25,581 nt of DNA from UHGV virus genome UHGV-0343683; one strand, written 5' to 3'. The notes under the pieces were generated by a model. That model ran no database searches. It was not told the DNA's origin and saw only the letters and a program-made list of their open reading frames with translations. The stretch is from a virus. Both the position numbers and the translations under genes were made by a program. This document shows positions 386 to 15,609 of the stretch, piece after piece (position 1 is the stretch's first letter; each line of letters begins with the position of its first letter).

Positions 386-874
386 TTACCCCAACCTCAA
401 GTTCTTTAAACGATAAGTCATCGCATCGTCAGATACGCCAAAATAATGCGCCATTATATAACTTGGTTGACCGTCAGCGTGCAGTTTTCTGACCTCATCT
501 ACCGGCATCAGAAGTTCTGCTGCGAACTTGTTTGCAAAAATTTCATCAGGATGCGTTCCGGCGCTTGCGGTTTCGCCACGTAAATCAACGTACTCATATT
601 CATCGCTATGCGATGCTTGCCGGGCGATGTAATGCCCCAACTCATGCCCACATGAAAAACGTTGACGAACTTTGTTGTCATCACTGTTTAGAAAGATCGC
701 TGGATCTTGATCTTTTTGTTTAATCAGTGCGCCAGAAACTTTCCCAGGAAGATCGGTAATAAAAACATCTAATCCCATGTCGTGAGCAATTTTCGCTGGA
801 TCAACAGGGAAACCACGCCCGCACCAGAACGTGTCCAGCACTCGCCGGGCGTGCTCTCTTGGGTTGGTAGCCAT
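386..874 (-). CDS. ImmA/IrrE family (COG2856-like) zinc metallopeptidase
   Basis: 162 aa with HEXXH motif (CGHELGHY) in the characteristic RQRF-x-x-x-HELGH context; GGAGG Shine-Dalgarno upstream of ATG at 874. No XRE/HTH partner immediately upstream (about 400 bp non-coding). Confidence 0.8.
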   Translation of the reverse strand: MATNPREHARRVLDTFWCGRGFPVDPAKIAHDMGLDVFITDLPGKVSGALIKQKDQDPAIFLNSDDNKVRQRFSCGHELGHYIARQASHSDEYEYVDLRGETASAGTHPDEIFANKFAAELLMPVDEVRKLHADGQPSYIMAHYFGVSDDAMTYRLKNLRLG

Positions 875-1272: not shown

Positions 1273-1506
1273 TCACTTCTGCAGTATCTCGCCAATACCT
1301 GCCAGATTCTCGTCCATCTTGTCACCGTTTTCGATAAGGATGGAGTTGAGCCGATTCAGTTGCATAGCAATTTCAAGTTTGATTAAGGTATCCACCGATA
1401 CACCAGTTTCTTTTGCTAACTTAGTAAGAGCCGCAGCTCGATTGGCTAAATTAAAATCATCGAACTCATAACGACTTCTGCACGGCTGGTTGCCTAACGT
1501 ACCCAT
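1273..1506 (-). CDS. small HTH-like protein (putative transcriptional regulator), 77 aa
   Basis: ORF with AGGAA Shine-Dalgarno 4 nt upstream of ATG; helix-turn-helix-like segment LTKLAKETGVSVDTLIKLE; divergent from the 1750 gene. Confidence 0.5.
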   Translation of the reverse strand: MGTLGNQPCRSRYEFDDFNLANRAAALTKLAKETGVSVDTLIKLEIAMQLNRLNSILIENGDKMDENLAGIGEILQK

Positions 1507-1749
1507 AGTGATTCCTCATGATATAAAGACCCAACAATATAAATTACCAGGCACATCATAAGATAGGGTTCCAGCCCATATTTTCAAATATTTGCAAGTA
1601 TCACCGTTCAGTCTAAAAAGTTGGATGATGATTTAACGAGCCATAACAAAACCCTGCCTCGGAGGTTTTTTCTTTTTTATAGAACTCAGCGGCGTGAAAA
1701 CGAATAATAAATTGTGCAAATAGTGCAGTTTTTATTATTCGAGGTAATT

Positions 1750-2391
1750 ATGAAAACCTTCTATGAGGACTGGCCTGAAACTTTCGTTAGCCGGTTAGAT
1801 ATGTTACGGGCGTTGGATGATCGCGGTTCGACCCGGAGGCTCTATCTTGAACGGACCGGGGCAATATTTGACGCTCTGGCAGAAGAGATACGTACAGTCG
1901 TTGCCGGGCATCCTGAAATCGACGTGAGTGAACTTGATATCGGGCCGCTGTATCGCTATTACAAACGTGGAGAAAAGGGGAATCCGCTGGCTGACTTACT
2001 TATTGAGTTGGCTCCACCAACTTGTGAACGGGTTCGTATATCTCCTGAAGTGTACATAATCCCGTATCTGTTTTTTGCACTGTTGATAGCGCAAGGCGCT
2101 GACAACGATGCCCGCGATTTTTTCAATATGATGATGCGACCGTTAATCATCGCCTACCGTTTCAAACAACTGGCGCGATACCTGGGAACAAAGGGCGGAG
2201 GACGACCACAGCACAGATTAAAAAGCGAAGCCATTGAACTGGCTGATCGTTTTTTTACTGAAAACCCGACAGCGCCATTATCGCGTGGCGTGCAATACAT
2301 ATCCGGTATTTTTGTGGCGAAATACTCTGACCCACCTGCAGCGTCGACGATTAGAAAATGGTTAATTCCAATTTACAGGAGTGATAAATAA
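1750..2391 (+). CDS. hypothetical protein, 214 aa, unknown function
   Basis: ATG at 1750 preceded by GAGGT (4-nt spacer); the track ORF begins at GTG 1714 but lacks an RBS there. No family recognised. Confidence 0.6.
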   Translation: MKTFYEDWPETFVSRLDMLRALDDRGSTRRLYLERTGAIFDALAEEIRTVVAGHPEIDVSELDIGPLYRYYKRGEKGNPLADLLIELAPPTCERVRISPEVYIIPYLFFALLIAQGADNDARDFFNMMMRPLIIAYRFKQLARYLGTKGGGRPQHRLKSEAIELADRFFTENPTAPLSRGVQYISGIFVAKYSDPPAASTIRKWLIPIYRSDK

Positions 2392-2398
2392 TGACCAT

Positions 2399-2447
2399 AA
2401 ACGGTTTAATCCCCTATAAAACCGTTTAATAAAATTCACGACGTGAA
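2399..2447. promoter_or_regulatory. paired palindromes: inverted repeat AAACGGTTT/AAACCGTTT (2399-2407 and 2419-2427) and TTCACG-a-CGTGAA (2435-2447)
   Basis: Read directly; located between the stop of the 1750 gene and the SOS-box promoter. Candidate operator(s) or weak terminator. Confidence 0.35.
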
Positions 2448-2484
2448 TATAATTGTTCATTATTCCCTCATTGTATTTGGCGTT

Positions 2485-2522
2485 ATGACAAATGCCATAA
2501 AATACTGTATAAATATACAGGT
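2485..2522 (+). promoter_or_regulatory. sigma70-like promoter (-35 ATGACA 2485-2490, 17-bp spacer, -10 TATAAA 2508-2513) overlapped by a LexA SOS box (2503-2522)
   Basis: tactgtataaatatacaggt matches the LexA consensus TACTGTATATATATACAGTA at 17 of 20 positions, with the CTGT-N8-ACAG core intact; the box overlaps the -10 and start region. Confidence 0.65.
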
Positions 2523-2542
2523 TGTGGCATTGGGGGGAAGAC

Positions 2543-2722
2543 ATGAATATTCAAGAATCTATAGGCGAACTACCGGAAACATGCCGGGCTGTTATCAAGC
2601 GTAAGGACGGACACATCGTTGGTGTGCGTGTTCTGACCGATGATGAGCGGATTGCCAGCCTGATGGCGTTTCTCGAGTTGGCAGAAATAGCTGGATATAC
2701 TATTACACCCCCTGACGCGTAA
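2543..2722 (+). CDS. small SOS-box-associated protein, 59 aa (putative LexA-regulated regulator or antirepressor-like; function unknown)
   Basis: ATG at 2543 preceded by a G-rich Shine-Dalgarno; about 20 nt downstream of the LexA-box promoter. The track ORF starts at TTG 2522. Confidence 0.55.
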   Translation: MNIQESIGELPETCRAVIKRKDGHIVGVRVLTDDERIASLMAFLELAEIAGYTITPPDA

Positions 2723-2799
2723 AACACGGTATAATATCGGTGCTGGATTGAACACCCGGCACCATTTTCTGAACACTGCCGCGCCACCTGGAGTTAACC

Positions 2800-3396
2800 A
2801 TGGCGCAGCATTCATTTATCAGGGTATCCGGCGGTTCGCTAATACCCGCGACACCAGACACGCAACGCTGGTTGACTGAACGAGTCAAACCAGGTGCTGT
2901 TGTGTATGCAGATTTCAAACAGGCGCGTAATCCCGCGTTTCATCGTAAATTTTTCTCACTTCTCAACCTGGGCTTTGATTACTGGCATCCGTCCGGAGGG
3001 GCTATTTCTCCTGCGGAGCGCGAACTGGTTCACGGCTACGTTAAGTTACTGGCGTATTACGGTGGACACGGTGATGTCATGGCAGAGCTGGCTGATCAGT
3101 ATCTTCTCGATGAGTCGGAAAAGCGCGCGGGGAGTATCAGTGCGGTGAAGTCGTTCGAGGCGTTTCGCGCATGGGCGATTATGGAAGCTGGGTTTTATGA
3201 CGTTCATCAGATGCCAGACGGCAGTTTGATGCGCGTACCTCGTTCAATCTCGTTTGCAGCGATGGACGATCTTGAGTTCGGTCAACTGTATTCAGCCGTT
3301 TTAGATGTGCTGTGGAATTATATTTTGTTCCGCACATTTGCCTCTCAGGAGGCCGCTGAAAATGCCGCCGCGCAGCTGCTGGATTACACATCATGA
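2800..3396 (+). CDS. DUF1367 family phage protein
   Basis: 198 aa; motif FKQARNPAFHRKFFSLLNLGFDYWHP, typical of the lambdoid prophage DUF1367 family as remembered; GGAG Shine-Dalgarno 7 nt upstream. Confidence 0.65.
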   Translation: MAQHSFIRVSGGSLIPATPDTQRWLTERVKPGAVVYADFKQARNPAFHRKFFSLLNLGFDYWHPSGGAISPAERELVHGYVKLLAYYGGHGDVMAELADQYLLDESEKRAGSISAVKSFEAFRAWAIMEAGFYDVHQMPDGSLMRVPRSISFAAMDDLEFGQLYSAVLDVLWNYILFRTFASQEAAENAAAQLLDYTS

Positions 3397-4469: not shown

Positions 4470-4853
4470 ATGTCTGAACCTCTAACCGCTGGCGTTGCTG
4501 CTGGCTCGGCGGGGGTGACGTTTGCTGCGTTATTTCCTGAGGCAACACCTGCAGTGATGATCTGTGCGCTGGCAGGCGCAGCTCTCTATGTGTTGTCGTC
4601 CGGGCAGCATCGATTCTGGAAGCAGGTTATTTTCGCACTCATTTCGTTTGTTGGCGGTGTGTATTGCGCTGAGACAGCGTCAGCCATCATTACCGGTATT
4701 CTGAACGCGGTGCTGAGTCACCTGAACCCTCCCGTAACAGTAAAAGTCTCTCCCGCCATTGGTGCACTGGTTGCATCAGTAATCAGCGTTACATCACTGT
4801 TGCGGATCATGTCACAAGCTCGTTTATGGAAATCAGATAAGGGGATGAAATAA
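4470..4853 (+). CDS. putative holin (multi-pass membrane protein)
   Basis: 127 aa with hydrophobic segments; first gene after the terminator; AGGA upstream of ATG 4470 (track ORF from 4389 reads through the terminator, so 4470 is preferred). Confidence 0.6.
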   Translation: MSEPLTAGVAAGSAGVTFAALFPEATPAVMICALAGAALYVLSSGQHRFWKQVIFALISFVGGVYCAETASAIITGILNAVLSHLNPPVTVKVSPAIGALVASVISVTSLLRIMSQARLWKSDKGMK

Positions 4854-5125
4854 TGACCCTGCACTCTGTCCTCATCAATGCCAATGCAATTATTTGTCTG
4901 ATGTTGGCACTACGGTTGATGTTTTTTCAAAAAACAGGCCGCTATCGTTTTTTCATCTCACTAACTGCTTACCTCGCGATTCTGTCTGCTGCGTGGATAG
5001 CCCTACGAATTTTTTACGGGAAATATACGCAGGTTGATCCCGCAGAGTTCTTTCTCAACCTCACCATCTGTATTGCTGTCTGGCGGGCACGAGGGAATAT
5101 TTCAAAAATAACAGGAGACAGGTAA
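4853..5125 (+). CDS. small membrane protein (second holin or antiholin-like)
   Basis: 90 aa, three hydrophobic stretches; ATG overlaps the upstream stop (TAATG). Confidence 0.5.
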   Translation: MTLHSVLINANAIICLMLALRLMFFQKTGRYRFFISLTAYLAILSAAWIALRIFYGKYTQVDPAEFFLNLTICIAVWRARGNISKITGDR

Positions 5126-15076: not shown

Positions 15077-15609
15077 GCGGACTGGATGCATTTGACGAAT
15101 ATCTTGATCGCGTTAAAGGCGCGGTTTTACAAATACCGTTCATCAAAACATTCGGAATTTATCCGGAAATTCCGGCTGGATTTGAAACGCCAGCTCTGTT
15201 CCTGGAAATCAGCAACTGGTCACAGAGTGACGAATCGGTTCCAGGCTCAATTCAGTCAGTCGAGCTGTCGTGTAATTTGTATTTGCTGCGTGAATTTGCA
15301 GCTGATCAGTACGGACTGAAATCGCAGAATGCAGCGCTCTATATGACGAGCTGGATCAATGGGCGAATGTTCGGTCCCGGAACTAAACCGGCAAAATTCA
15401 GCGACGCGGAACCGTGCGACTGGATTAAAAACGGGCAGTCAGTCGGTTCGCATTCAGTTCAGTGCGTGTCGTTCACGCAGGTTGTAGGCGTTGGTCCAGA
15501 TATTTTCGATTATCCCTCACAGGGGACCCTGAAAAATATATACGTCGGAATAGCACCAGATATCGGCGCAGAACATGAGGGCGACTATTATGGCCCAATC
15601 GGACGATGA
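15073..15609 (+). CDS. hypothetical structural protein (possible tail completion protein)
   Basis: 178 aa; ATGA overlap with the upstream gene; directly precedes the baseplate genes. Function inferred from position only. Confidence 0.45.
   Translation: MSGLDAFDEYLDRVKGAVLQIPFIKTFGIYPEIPAGFETPALFLEISNWSQSDESVPGSIQSVELSCNLYLLREFAADQYGLKSQNAALYMTSWINGRMFGPGTKPAKFSDAEPCDWIKNGQSVGSHSVQCVSFTQVVGVGPDIFDYPSQGTLKNIYVGIAPDIGAEHEGDYYGPIGR

What the first reader, a model, noticed from the sequence alone, without database searches (positions are those of the whole stretch)
2399..2722. Near-consensus LexA box over the promoter of a 59-aa ORF
tactgtataaatatacaggt (2503-2522) matches the E. coli LexA consensus at 17 of 20 positions with the CTGT-N8-ACAG core intact, and it overlaps a -10 TATAAA and the likely start of a promoter (-35 ATGACA, 17-bp spacer). 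The first gene downstream is a 59-aa ORF (2543-2722, MNIQESIGELPETCRAVIKRKDGHIVGVRVL...) with no family I can assign. Two further palindromes (2399-2427 and 2435-2447) sit just upstream, suggesting layered control. In Gifsy, Fels-2 and 186-type prophages, LexA-repressed small genes encode antirepressors (Tum-like); this could be a new member or a different SOS-triggered effector.
Basis: partly seen in the sequence, partly recalled or inferred. Interest (0 to 1): 0.6.

Follow-up and report, generated by a model that had tools for sequence, protein, structure and literature searches.

The report
SOS-controlled prophage antirepressor gene
A strong LexA (DNA-damage repressor) binding site sits on the promoter of a real 59-residue gene that is a short relative of the known Gifsy/Qin prophage antirepressors GfoA and Rem, so this E. 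coli prophage most likely wakes up after DNA damage by the already described "LexA controls an antirepressor" route rather than by repressor self-cleavage.

Summary
TACTGTATAAATATACAGGT (2503-2522) is by far the best LexA site in the window (25.8 bits; next best 10.8). It overlaps a -35 ATGACA / 17 nt / -10 TATAAA promoter, 20 nt upstream of the 59-aa ORF (2543-2722).

The ORF is a real gene (dN/dS about 0.17). It belongs to PHROG 340 together with two experimentally proven antirepressors, Salmonella Gifsy-1 GfoA and E. coli Qin Rem. It occupies the gfoA/gftA slot directly upstream of the irsA-like DUF1367 gene.

In 97 of 106 distinct related loci (proteins 29-100% identical) a LexA box of at least 15 bits lies upstream of the start codon, in most of them 14-24 nt away.

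The prophage's own repressor, outside the window, is a 130-aa HTH-only protein homologous to GtgR and DicA, with no self-cleavage domain.

Best reading: a LexA-repressed small antirepressor that triggers induction. It is a new, shorter, dinI-less member of a known kind, not a Tum relative.

Unexplained extras: a covarying RNA hairpin with an invariant YUGAACA loop downstream of the gene, and conserved palindromes upstream.

The parts
2398..2428 (+). Two copies of the near-palindrome TAAAC(G/C)GTTTA about 20 bp apart. Together they can form a 10-bp AT-rich hairpin just after the stop of the upstream gene (1714-2391).
   Evidence: RNA fold dG -9.2. In relatives L015-L017 the left copy changes from G to C, so the two copies become direct repeats and the long stem gains a mismatch. 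The motif is absent from the immunity region. Function not established: a weak terminator or insulator, as described upstream of the Gifsy LexA boxes (PMC3121763), or a protein-binding site.
2426..2453 (+). Promoter-like TTAATA / 16 nt / TATAAT whose spacer holds the palindrome TTCAC-N3-GTGAA (2435-2447).
   Evidence: 10 of 12 match, although the region as a whole has no excess of promoter-like sites. The palindrome arms are invariant while the centre varies in six related sequences. The palindrome occurs only once in the prophage. Function unknown.
2485..2490 (+). -35 hexamer ATGACA of the putative SOS promoter.
   Evidence: Read. Invariant in relatives 75-98% identical.
2508..2513 (+). -10 hexamer TATAAA, 17 nt after the -35 and inside the LexA box.
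   Evidence: Read. It is TATAAA or TATATA in relatives. In more distant family members the -10 (TATATA or TATAAA) abuts the 5' edge of the box instead.
2503..2522 (.). LexA box TACTGTATAAATATACAGGT.
   Evidence: A box of at least 15 bits is present upstream of the homologous ORF in 97 of 106 distinct loci, against 0.0045 expected per 310 nt elsewhere in the same loci.
2532..2540 (+). Ribosome-binding site GGGGGGAAG, ending 2 nt before the ATG.
   Evidence: Read. G-rich or GAGG-type sites lie at the same place in relatives and before gftA in Gifsy-2.
2543..2722 (+). 59-aa antirepressor-like gene (WP_001025459.1), a member of PHROG 340 and a short homologue of GfoA and Rem.
   Evidence: dN/dS 0.17-0.20, with substitutions concentrated at third codon positions. 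AlphaFold model pLDDT 90.4: helix, beta-hairpin, helix.
2739..2763 (+). Conserved RNA hairpin GGTGCUGG-a-UUGAACA-c-CCGGCACC with an invariant YUGAACA loop.
   Evidence: dG -14.4. Covariation score 0.421 against 0.208 in shuffles (0 of 500 reach it) and at most 0.161 with slid partners; CG/UA, UA/CG and GC/AU swaps occur. The same element follows gftA, gfoA and rem. No Rfam match.
2769..2775 (+). Second copy of CTGAACA, 21 nt after the first, in the leader of the DUF1367 gene.
   Evidence: Present as CTGA(A/G)CA in most related loci.
2800..3396 (+). DUF1367 gene, the homologue of Gifsy irsA (STM1020/STM2620) and the conserved downstream neighbour.
   Evidence: Pfam DUF1367 E 6e-78. 56% identical to Gifsy-2 STM1020, E 5e-82. 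Lies 60-87 nt downstream of the small ORF in almost all related loci.

Best explanation
The 59-aa ORF encodes a small antirepressor of the GfoA/Rem family, and its promoter is shut by host LexA.

In a lysogen, LexA occupies the box at 2503-2522, which covers the -10 hexamer, so the gene is silent.

DNA damage activates RecA and LexA cleaves itself. The promoter then fires from a start site I infer to lie near 2520, giving a leader of about 22 nt, and the protein is made.

The protein binds the prophage's lysogenic repressor. That repressor is a 130-aa HTH-only GtgR/DicA-type protein encoded about 12 kb upstream, outside the window, and it cannot cleave itself. Binding takes it off its operators, the early operons are derepressed and the prophage is induced.

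Shown here by computation: the strength and family-wide conservation of the LexA box, the overlap with a conserved promoter, purifying selection on the ORF, homology to two experimentally proven antirepressors, the shared genomic slot, and the non-cleavable type of repressor.

Inferred, not shown: LexA binding, SOS induction of the transcript, physical binding of this protein to this repressor, and induction of this prophage.
For: - LexA site: 25.8 bits against 10.8 for the next best site in the window; 0 of 100 shuffles give a hit with up to 3 mismatches.
- Conservation: 97 of 106 distinct loci encoding family members carry a box of at least 15 bits upstream of the start codon, 14-24 nt away in most, against a background of 0.0045 per 310 nt. 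These loci hold 62 distinct proteins, 29-100% identical to the window protein, and 46 distinct box sequences.
- Real gene: dN/dS 0.17-0.20, with position-wise changes of 8:5:22.
- Family: PHROG 340, E 1.6e-20 for the ORF, 4.4e-21 for Rem and 7.6e-21 for GfoA. hhalign of the family alignment against GfoA gives E 6e-11, probability 97%, and against Rem E 4.4e-7, probability 93%. BLASTP of the ORF against GfoA gives E 6e-10.
- Identity of GfoA: fixed by matching the cloning primers pp866/pp867 of Lemire et al. 2011 to the TTG-start 82-aa ORF between dinI and irsA.
- Published function: GfoA binds GfoR and removes it from DNA and is LexA-controlled (PMC3121763). Rem derepresses DicA-controlled dicBp 165-fold (PMC10448788).
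- Synteny: Gifsy-2 reads LexA box, dinI, gftA, irsA. The window reads LexA box, ORF, DUF1367, and that DUF1367 protein is 56% identical to Gifsy-2 irsA.
- Repressor: WP_000853106.1 is 130 aa with an HTH_3 domain only and no peptidase domain. It is 33% identical to GtgR (E 5e-23) and 31% to DicA (E 1e-15) over the full length.
- Domain context: the PHROG 340 domain also forms the C-terminus of an ORF6N 'anti-repressor' protein in the same prophage.
Against: - There are no experimental data for this gene or this prophage. I found no paper on it.
- The protein lacks the roughly 23 N-terminal residues (an extra hairpin) present in GfoA and Rem.
- There is no dinI gene in the operon, unlike all Gifsy loci.
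- Similarity to the third proven antirepressor, GftA, is not significant.
- The prophage carries two other PHROG 340 domains without LexA boxes, so which one is the cognate partner of the repressor is not settled.
- Rem, the closest E. coli K-12 relative, has no LexA box.
- An ImmA/IrrE metallopeptidase gene (386-874) offers, in principle, another way to inactivate an HTH repressor.
- The LexA PWM rests on boxes I recalled from memory, although the consensus search made with the tool agrees with it.
Confidence: 0.72

Rival explanations
1. The protein is an SOS-induced antirepressor, but its main target is the repressor of another, co-resident prophage (crosstalk). This prophage's own repressor would be handled by one of the two other PHROG 340 proteins or by another route.
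For: Gifsy and Fels-1 antirepressors act on non-cognate repressors (PMC3121763). The same prophage has two further PHROG 340 domains. Family members without LexA boxes sit in the left operons of CI-type Stx phages, as FsoA does in Fels-1.
Against: Only the window gene carries the LexA box and the conserved Gifsy slot. A non-cleavable repressor needs an SOS-linked inactivator, and this is the only LexA site in the 25.6-kb window. A 76%-identical variant of the ORF is found with the identical repressor in another strain.
Confidence: 0.1
2. The LexA-controlled promoter exists mainly to transcribe the downstream nin-region genes (DUF1367, YbcO-like nuclease, Q antiterminator) after DNA damage. The small ORF would be a leader peptide or an accessory product.
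For: All downstream genes as far as Q are on the same strand with overlapping stop and start codons. The DUF1367 gene follows the small ORF in nearly every locus. Lemire et al. describe dinI-antirepressor-irsA as one LexA-regulated operon.
Against: The ORF is under purifying selection and is homologous to proven antirepressors. In Gifsy-2, gftA alone suffices for induction, and deletions of dinI or irsA had no effect (PMC3121763). A conserved hairpin lies between the ORF and DUF1367 and may limit read-through.
Confidence: 0.07
3. The protein is a different SOS effector, for example a modulator of RecA like DinI, a toxin or a cell-division inhibitor, and has nothing to do with repressor inactivation.
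For: Prophage LexA-controlled small genes include dinI homologues. There is no Pfam or NCBIfam family and no solved structural relative.
Against: No similarity to DinI (no Pfam hit). Significant homology to GfoA and Rem. The three Gifsy-slot ORF classes are all found at this position.
Confidence: 0.07
4. The LexA-like sequence is a chance palindrome and the ORF is not expressed.
For: AT-rich intergenic DNA often contains palindromes. CTGT-N8-ACAG alone is expected 0.21 times per window.
Against: The full 20-mer is never reached in shuffles. The box is kept in 97 of 106 distinct loci while the surrounding sequence and the protein diverge to about 30% identity. dN/dS is 0.17.
Confidence: 0.02

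Closest known systems
GfoA / GfhA, the LexA-controlled antirepressors of Salmonella Gifsy-1 and Gifsy-3 (Lemire, Figueroa-Bossi and Bossi 2011, PMC3121763)
   Same: Homologous sequence: same PHROG 340; BLASTP E 6e-10; 33% identity over 51 residues, including the C-terminal ...GY.(V/I)TPP motif. A LexA box lies on the promoter. The gene sits outside the immunity region, directly upstream of the irsA/DUF1367 gene. It is followed by the same YUGAACA hairpin. The partner repressor is a short, non-cleavable HTH protein.
   Different: 59 aa rather than 82 aa, lacking the N-terminal roughly 23 residues. ATG rather than UUG start. No dinI gene between the LexA box and the antirepressor, so the box is 20 nt from the start codon. 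In this clade the box overlaps the -10 hexamer.
Rem of the E. coli K-12 Qin cryptic prophage, antirepressor of DicA (Ragunathan and Vanderpool 2023, PMC10448788)
   Same: Same PHROG 340 (E 4.4e-21 against 1.6e-20). hhalign E 4.4e-7. The partner repressor is of the same family (DicA is 31% identical to this prophage's repressor). The same hairpin lies downstream.
   Different: Rem is 83 aa and has no LexA box upstream (best site 3.4 bits). Its inducing signal is unknown. The gene downstream of rem is ydfU, not a DUF1367 gene.
GftA of Gifsy-2 (and FsoA of Fels-1)
   Same: Same slot between the LexA box/dinI and irsA. Similar size. A GGGGGG-type ribosome-binding site. Same downstream hairpin.
   Different: Sequence similarity is not significant (BLASTP gives none; hhalign probability 4-6%; PHROG 4847 rather than 340).
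Tum of coliphage 186 (and AntC of N15)
   Same: Works alike: a LexA box overlapping the -10 of a dedicated promoter (p95) drives an antirepressor that blocks CI binding to DNA.
   Different: No detectable homology (hhalign probability 0.4%). Tum is 146 aa and is fused to a DinI-like half. It belongs to a P2-like phage, not a lambdoid one.

Membership tests
GfoA/Rem-type small antirepressors (PHROG 340) | Sequence homology to GfoA | tested here: met
   PHROG 340 E 1.6e-20 for the ORF and 7.6e-21 for GfoA. hhalign E 6e-11, probability 97%. BLASTP E 6e-10. GfoA was identified through the published primers.
GfoA/Rem-type small antirepressors (PHROG 340) | Sequence homology to Rem | tested here: met
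   Rem falls in PHROG 340 with E 4.4e-21. hhalign E 4.4e-7, probability 93%.
Gifsy-type LexA/antirepressor induction module | LexA box on the promoter of the antirepressor transcription unit | tested here: met
   The box is conserved in 97 of 106 distinct loci.
Gifsy-type LexA/antirepressor induction module | Gene lies outside the immunity region, downstream of the replication genes and upstream of the irsA homologue | tested here: met
   Prophage map. The DUF1367 protein is 56% identical to STM1020. Gifsy-2 map.
Gifsy-type LexA/antirepressor induction module | dinI homologue as first gene of the operon | tested here: not met
   No DinI-like ORF within 900 nt of any family locus. The box is 20 nt from the start codon.
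Gifsy-type LexA/antirepressor induction module | Lysogenic repressor is short (about 130-150 aa), similar to the CI N-terminal domain, and has no self-cleavage domain | tested here: met
   130 aa with HTH_3 only. 33% identical to GtgR (E 5e-23) and 31% to DicA (E 1e-15).
Gifsy-type LexA/antirepressor induction module | Antirepressor binds the repressor and releases it from the operator; expression alone induces the prophage | not testable with these tools
   Needs pull-down, EMSA and ectopic expression. The structure tool takes single chains from this window only.
Gifsy-type LexA/antirepressor induction module | Protein accumulates after DNA damage in a LexA-dependent way | not testable with these tools
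   No expression data are available in the tools, and no paper was found.
GftA/FsoA family (PHROG 4847) | Sequence homology to GftA | tested here: not met
   BLASTP finds no alignment. hhalign probability 6% and 4%. GftA against PHROG 340 gives E 0.23.
Tum (phage 186) family | Sequence homology to Tum, including the DinI-like C-terminal half | tested here: not met
   hhalign probability 0.4%. No DinI Pfam hit.
Large Ant / ORF6N / KilA-N antirepressors | ORF6N, Bro-N or KilAC domain | tested here: not met
   No Pfam domain in the ORF. Only the C-terminal approximately 40 residues of the prophage's ORF6N protein resemble it.
E. coli LexA regulon operator | CTGT-N8-ACAG core with an AT-rich spacer, scoring within the range of known boxes, and overlapping a promoter | tested here: met
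   Binding itself was not tested.

The most novel reading that the evidence does not exclude
The hairpin with the invariant YUGAACA loop (2739-2763) and its second CUGAACA copy (2769-2775) follow every antirepressor gene of this kind that I examined: gftA, gfoA, rem, this ORF and dozens of others. The stem covaries.

They could form an undescribed cis-acting RNA element that decides whether the SOS transcript stops after the antirepressor or reads on into the DUF1367/nuclease/Q genes, or that is bound by a phage or host factor.

Together with the dinI-less 59-64-aa 'minimal' antirepressors, this would define a distinct, widespread variant of the Gifsy induction module.
Probability: 0.25. Interest if true: 0.5.

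Novelty: new member of a known kind. Interest (0 to 1): 0.3.

Why it matters
About 8% of complete E. coli genomes (445 of 5,426, many of them ST131 clinical isolates) carry this exact module. It therefore probably decides whether DNA-damaging antibiotics such as fluoroquinolones induce this prophage.

The work assigns a testable function to a 'hypothetical protein' and to PHROG 340, which is listed as of unknown function. It links GfoA and Rem to a large set of 59-64-aa proteins sitting directly behind LexA boxes in prophages related to enterobacterial lambdoid phages. This bears out the 2011 prediction that antirepressor-mediated induction is common in E. coli.

The principle itself is not new. 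The only items that go beyond the literature I could search are the minimal dinI-less architecture and the conserved downstream hairpin.

Tried and rejected
- Pfam and NCBIfam gave nothing for the ORF.
- The word-indexed protein search found only relatives at least 73% identical. The exhaustive profile search was needed to reach 38 representatives.
The single genome-contig scan returned one locus. Single-protein viral scans with P0008 and P0009 found nothing. Subfamily alignments worked.
- My first two locus pipelines mis-set start codons, because one query carried a false N-terminal extension translated through the LexA box. They undercounted boxes and were corrected.
- Rfam found nothing relevant in 2200-3000.
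- Homology to Tum and to GftA was tested and rejected.
- I tested whether the upstream palindromes are operators of the prophage repressor. The motifs are absent from the immunity region.
- I looked for repressor/antirepressor co-variation through a strain with a 76% variant of the ORF. The repressor there is identical, so the comparison is uninformative on specificity.

Full report
**Context**

The window is the right half of a lambdoid prophage of E. coli. The 501 bases around the finding are at least 99% identical in 413 of 5,426 complete E. coli genomes and are present in 445, always on the chromosome. They also occur in the GenBank record of phage vB_EcoM-705R4.

In strain SK1144 the prophage sits next to a tRNA-Leu gene. 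Its gene order is:
- integrase and an early-left block
- a 130-aa HTH repressor
- a Cro/YdaS-like gene and a YdaT-like gene
- replication genes
- a block of accessory genes
- the region of the finding
- DUF1367, a YbcO-like nuclease and antiterminator Q
- lysis genes, terminase and head genes

Pfam and PHROGs confirm DUF1367, YbcO and Q immediately downstream, and an ImmA/IrrE peptidase upstream on the other strand.

**The observation**

The sequence TACTGTATAAATATACAGGT lies at 2503-2522.
- It is the only match with up to 3 mismatches to TACTGTATATATATACAGTA in 25.6 kb. None of 100 dinucleotide-preserving shuffles gave any match.
- It is the only CTGT-N8-ACAG in the window.
- A weight matrix built from 31 E. 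coli SOS boxes that I recalled from memory scores it at 25.8 bits. That places it among the stronger known boxes. The next best site in the window scores 10.8.

The -10 lies inside the box.

The ORF runs from ATG 2543 to TAA 2720-2722 behind GGGGGGAAG, and RefSeq annotates it (WP_001025459.1) as hypothetical. Both upstream palindromes exist.

**Is the ORF a gene?**

Against variants that are 75-76% identical at the protein level, nucleotide changes fall 8:5:22 on codon positions 1:2:3. dN/dS is 0.17-0.20.

An exhaustive profile search found 38 cluster representatives, most of them 55-66 aa. They align over the whole length, with a conserved ...G(R)xVxxxxxGxxxSxRxL..DEHIASL..F.ELA..AGYTI.P pattern.

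AlphaFold gives a confident model (pLDDT 90.4): a short helix, a beta-hairpin and a second helix. I found no solved structural relative.

**What family is it?**

Pfam and NCBIfam are silent. PHROG 340, listed as of unknown function, matches at E 1.6e-20.

Rem of the K-12 Qin prophage was shown experimentally to relieve DicA repression (PMC10448788). It matches the same PHROG at E 4.4e-21 and aligns to the family profile at E 4.4e-7.

To test the Gifsy link I fetched 80 Salmonella-type loci through the Gifsy-2 DinI protein. I then read the small ORFs between dinI and the irsA homologue. There are three classes:
- GftA.
- An 82-aa TTG-start ORF. It matches the published gfoA cloning primers pp866 and pp867, so it is GfoA. 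It hits PHROG 340 at E 7.6e-21, the family profile at E 6e-11 with probability 97%, and the window protein directly at E 6e-10, 33% identity over 51 residues.
- A 79-aa ORF, which is also related to the family (E 4.9e-8).

GftA itself is not significantly similar. Phage 186 Tum is unrelated.

The window protein corresponds to the C-terminal roughly 55 residues of GfoA and Rem. It lacks their extra N-terminal segment.

**Position**

Gifsy-2 reads terminator-like palindrome, LexA box TACTGTGTTTATATACAGTG, dinI, gftA, irsA homologue STM1020.

The window reads palindromes, LexA box, 59-aa ORF, DUF1367. That DUF1367 protein is 56% identical to STM1020 (E 5e-82). The spacer between the small ORF and the DUF1367 gene is recognisably homologous too.

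The ORF therefore occupies the antirepressor slot. The difference is that no dinI gene precedes it.

**Conservation of the LexA box**

I collected 131 loci that encode family members and have enough upstream sequence, from IMG/VR contigs and phage records.
- After removing duplicates, 97 of 106 carry a box of at least 15 bits within 300 nt upstream. The gap between the box and the start codon is 14-24 nt in 89 of them.
- Elsewhere in the same loci, such sites occur 0.0045 times per 310 nt.
- The 97 loci hold 62 distinct proteins, 29-100% identical to the window protein, and 46 distinct box sequences.
- The loci are related prophages and not independent samples. Even so, the box persists while the protein and its flanks diverge widely.

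In most subfamilies the promoter is TTGCAC / 17 nt / TATATA with the box abutting the -10. In the window's clade the box overlaps the -10. Many homologues start with GTG or TTG, as reported for gftA and gfoA. One example is phage vB_SmeS_BUCT708, with LexA box, a 63-aa homologue (40% identical) and then DUF1367.

The exceptions are instructive:
- Rem.
- One small group (L126-L128) and L123.
- Two paralogues in this same prophage.

**The partner**

The prophage repressor WP_000853106.1 is 130 aa and has only an HTH_3 domain. It aligns over its full length with GtgR (33% identity, E 5e-23) and DicA (31%, E 1e-15).

It has no S24 peptidase domain, so RecA-stimulated self-cleavage is not expected. 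An antirepressor is the known solution for this repressor class (PMC3121763).

**Mechanism**

LexA bound over the -10 keeps the gene off. After DNA damage LexA cleaves itself and the short-leader mRNA is made. The 59-aa protein binds the repressor and removes it from the operators. For GfoR/GfoA this complex appears to be a heterotetramer. The early operons are then derepressed.

Only the sequence-level steps are shown here. Binding and induction are inferred from homology. I put this at about 0.72.

The rivals are listed separately with lower weights: a crosstalk antirepressor aimed at another prophage, a promoter that mainly serves DUF1367...Q, an unrelated SOS effector, and chance.

**Upstream palindromes**

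The first 'palindrome' is really two copies of TAAAC(G/C)GTTTA about 20 bp apart. In relatives L015-L017 a G-to-C change turns them into direct repeats and adds a mismatch to the long stem.

The second, TTCAC-N3-GTGAA, keeps its arms while its centre varies. It lies in the spacer of a promoter-like TTAATA / 16 nt / TATAAT.

Neither motif occurs in the immunity region. They may be insulating terminators, as Lemire et al. noted upstream of the Gifsy boxes, or binding sites for an unknown protein. 'Layered control' is possible but unsupported.

**Downstream hairpin**

Between the ORF and DUF1367 lies GGTGCTGG-a-TTGAACA-c-CCGGCACC (2739-2763, dG -14.4).

In 46 distinct sequences the loop YTGAACA is invariant. 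The set includes those after gftA, gfoA (whose UGA stop lies in the loop) and rem. The inner five stem pairs are at least 89% paired, with CG/UA, UA/CG and GC/AU swaps and G-U wobbles that fit only the + strand. The covariation score is 0.421, against 0.208 in shuffles (0 of 500 reach it) and at most 0.161 with slid partners.

A second CTGA(A/G)CA follows 21-24 nt later. Most relatives have no U-tract after the stem, and Rfam has no match. I cannot say what the element does.

**Verdict**

The element is a new, shorter, dinI-less member of the known Gifsy/Qin class of small antirepressors under LexA control. It is analogous, but not homologous, to Tum. Its novelty is modest. The hairpin and the palindromes are the only unexplained features.

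Noticed in passing
window 2739-2775 (also L003 11715-11735, L004 downstream of rem, L150 at the end of gfoA): A conserved hairpin with an invariant YUGAACA loop and a covarying stem, plus a second CUGA(A/G)CA copy 21-24 nt later. It sits between every antirepressor-type gene examined and the next gene. It is not in Rfam and usually has no U-tract.
   Followed up: partly
window 2398-2453: Two TAAAC(G/C)GTTTA near-palindromes about 20 bp apart, and a TTCAC-N3-GTGAA palindrome inside a promoter-like TTAATA / 16 nt / TATAAT. The arms are conserved in close relatives and the motifs are absent from the immunity region.
   Followed up: partly
window 386-874 (- strand): An ImmA/IrrE (Peptidase_M78) metallopeptidase gene in a minus-strand accessory block, far from the immunity region. 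In other mobile elements proteases of this family cleave HTH repressors, so it is a conceivable second route to derepression, or part of a toxin-antitoxin or defence cassette.
   Followed up: no
window 2767-2799: A CRISPR array of E. coli strain 48 (NZ_CP166879.1) contains a 33-nt stretch 100% identical to this segment (hit H31). A 2025 paper reports 28 spacers from urological E. coli matching phage vB_EcoM-705R4, which is this prophage (PMC12736100).
   Followed up: partly
L002 about 4742-4960 and L002 5236-6024 (same prophage, about 4-5 kb upstream of the window start): A second stand-alone PHROG 340 protein that is not annotated in RefSeq (E 5.2e-21), and an ORF6N 'anti-repressor' whose residues 197-238 match PHROG 340 (E 4.2e-12). 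Neither has a LexA box. This suggests that PHROG 340 is a portable repressor-binding module.
   Followed up: partly
L214 (E. coli HCP5S3_I2) 15142-15321 compared with window 2543-2722: The promoter-plus-ORF module is mosaic. A variant with dS about 0.7 (76% amino-acid identity, differences concentrated in the N-terminal half) sits between flanks that are 94-99% identical, and it is paired with an identical repressor protein.
   Followed up: partly
L019 3456-3689, L020 3477-3659: Stx-converting phages and phage ASU11 carry family members in the early-left operon next to full-length CI-type repressors. They have no LexA box and so resemble FsoA of Fels-1.
   Followed up: no
window 1714-2391 and 1273-1506 (- strand): Two conserved phage ORFs of unknown function (PHROG 5215, E 1e-150; PHROG 5550, E 1e-55) flank the module upstream.
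   Followed up: no
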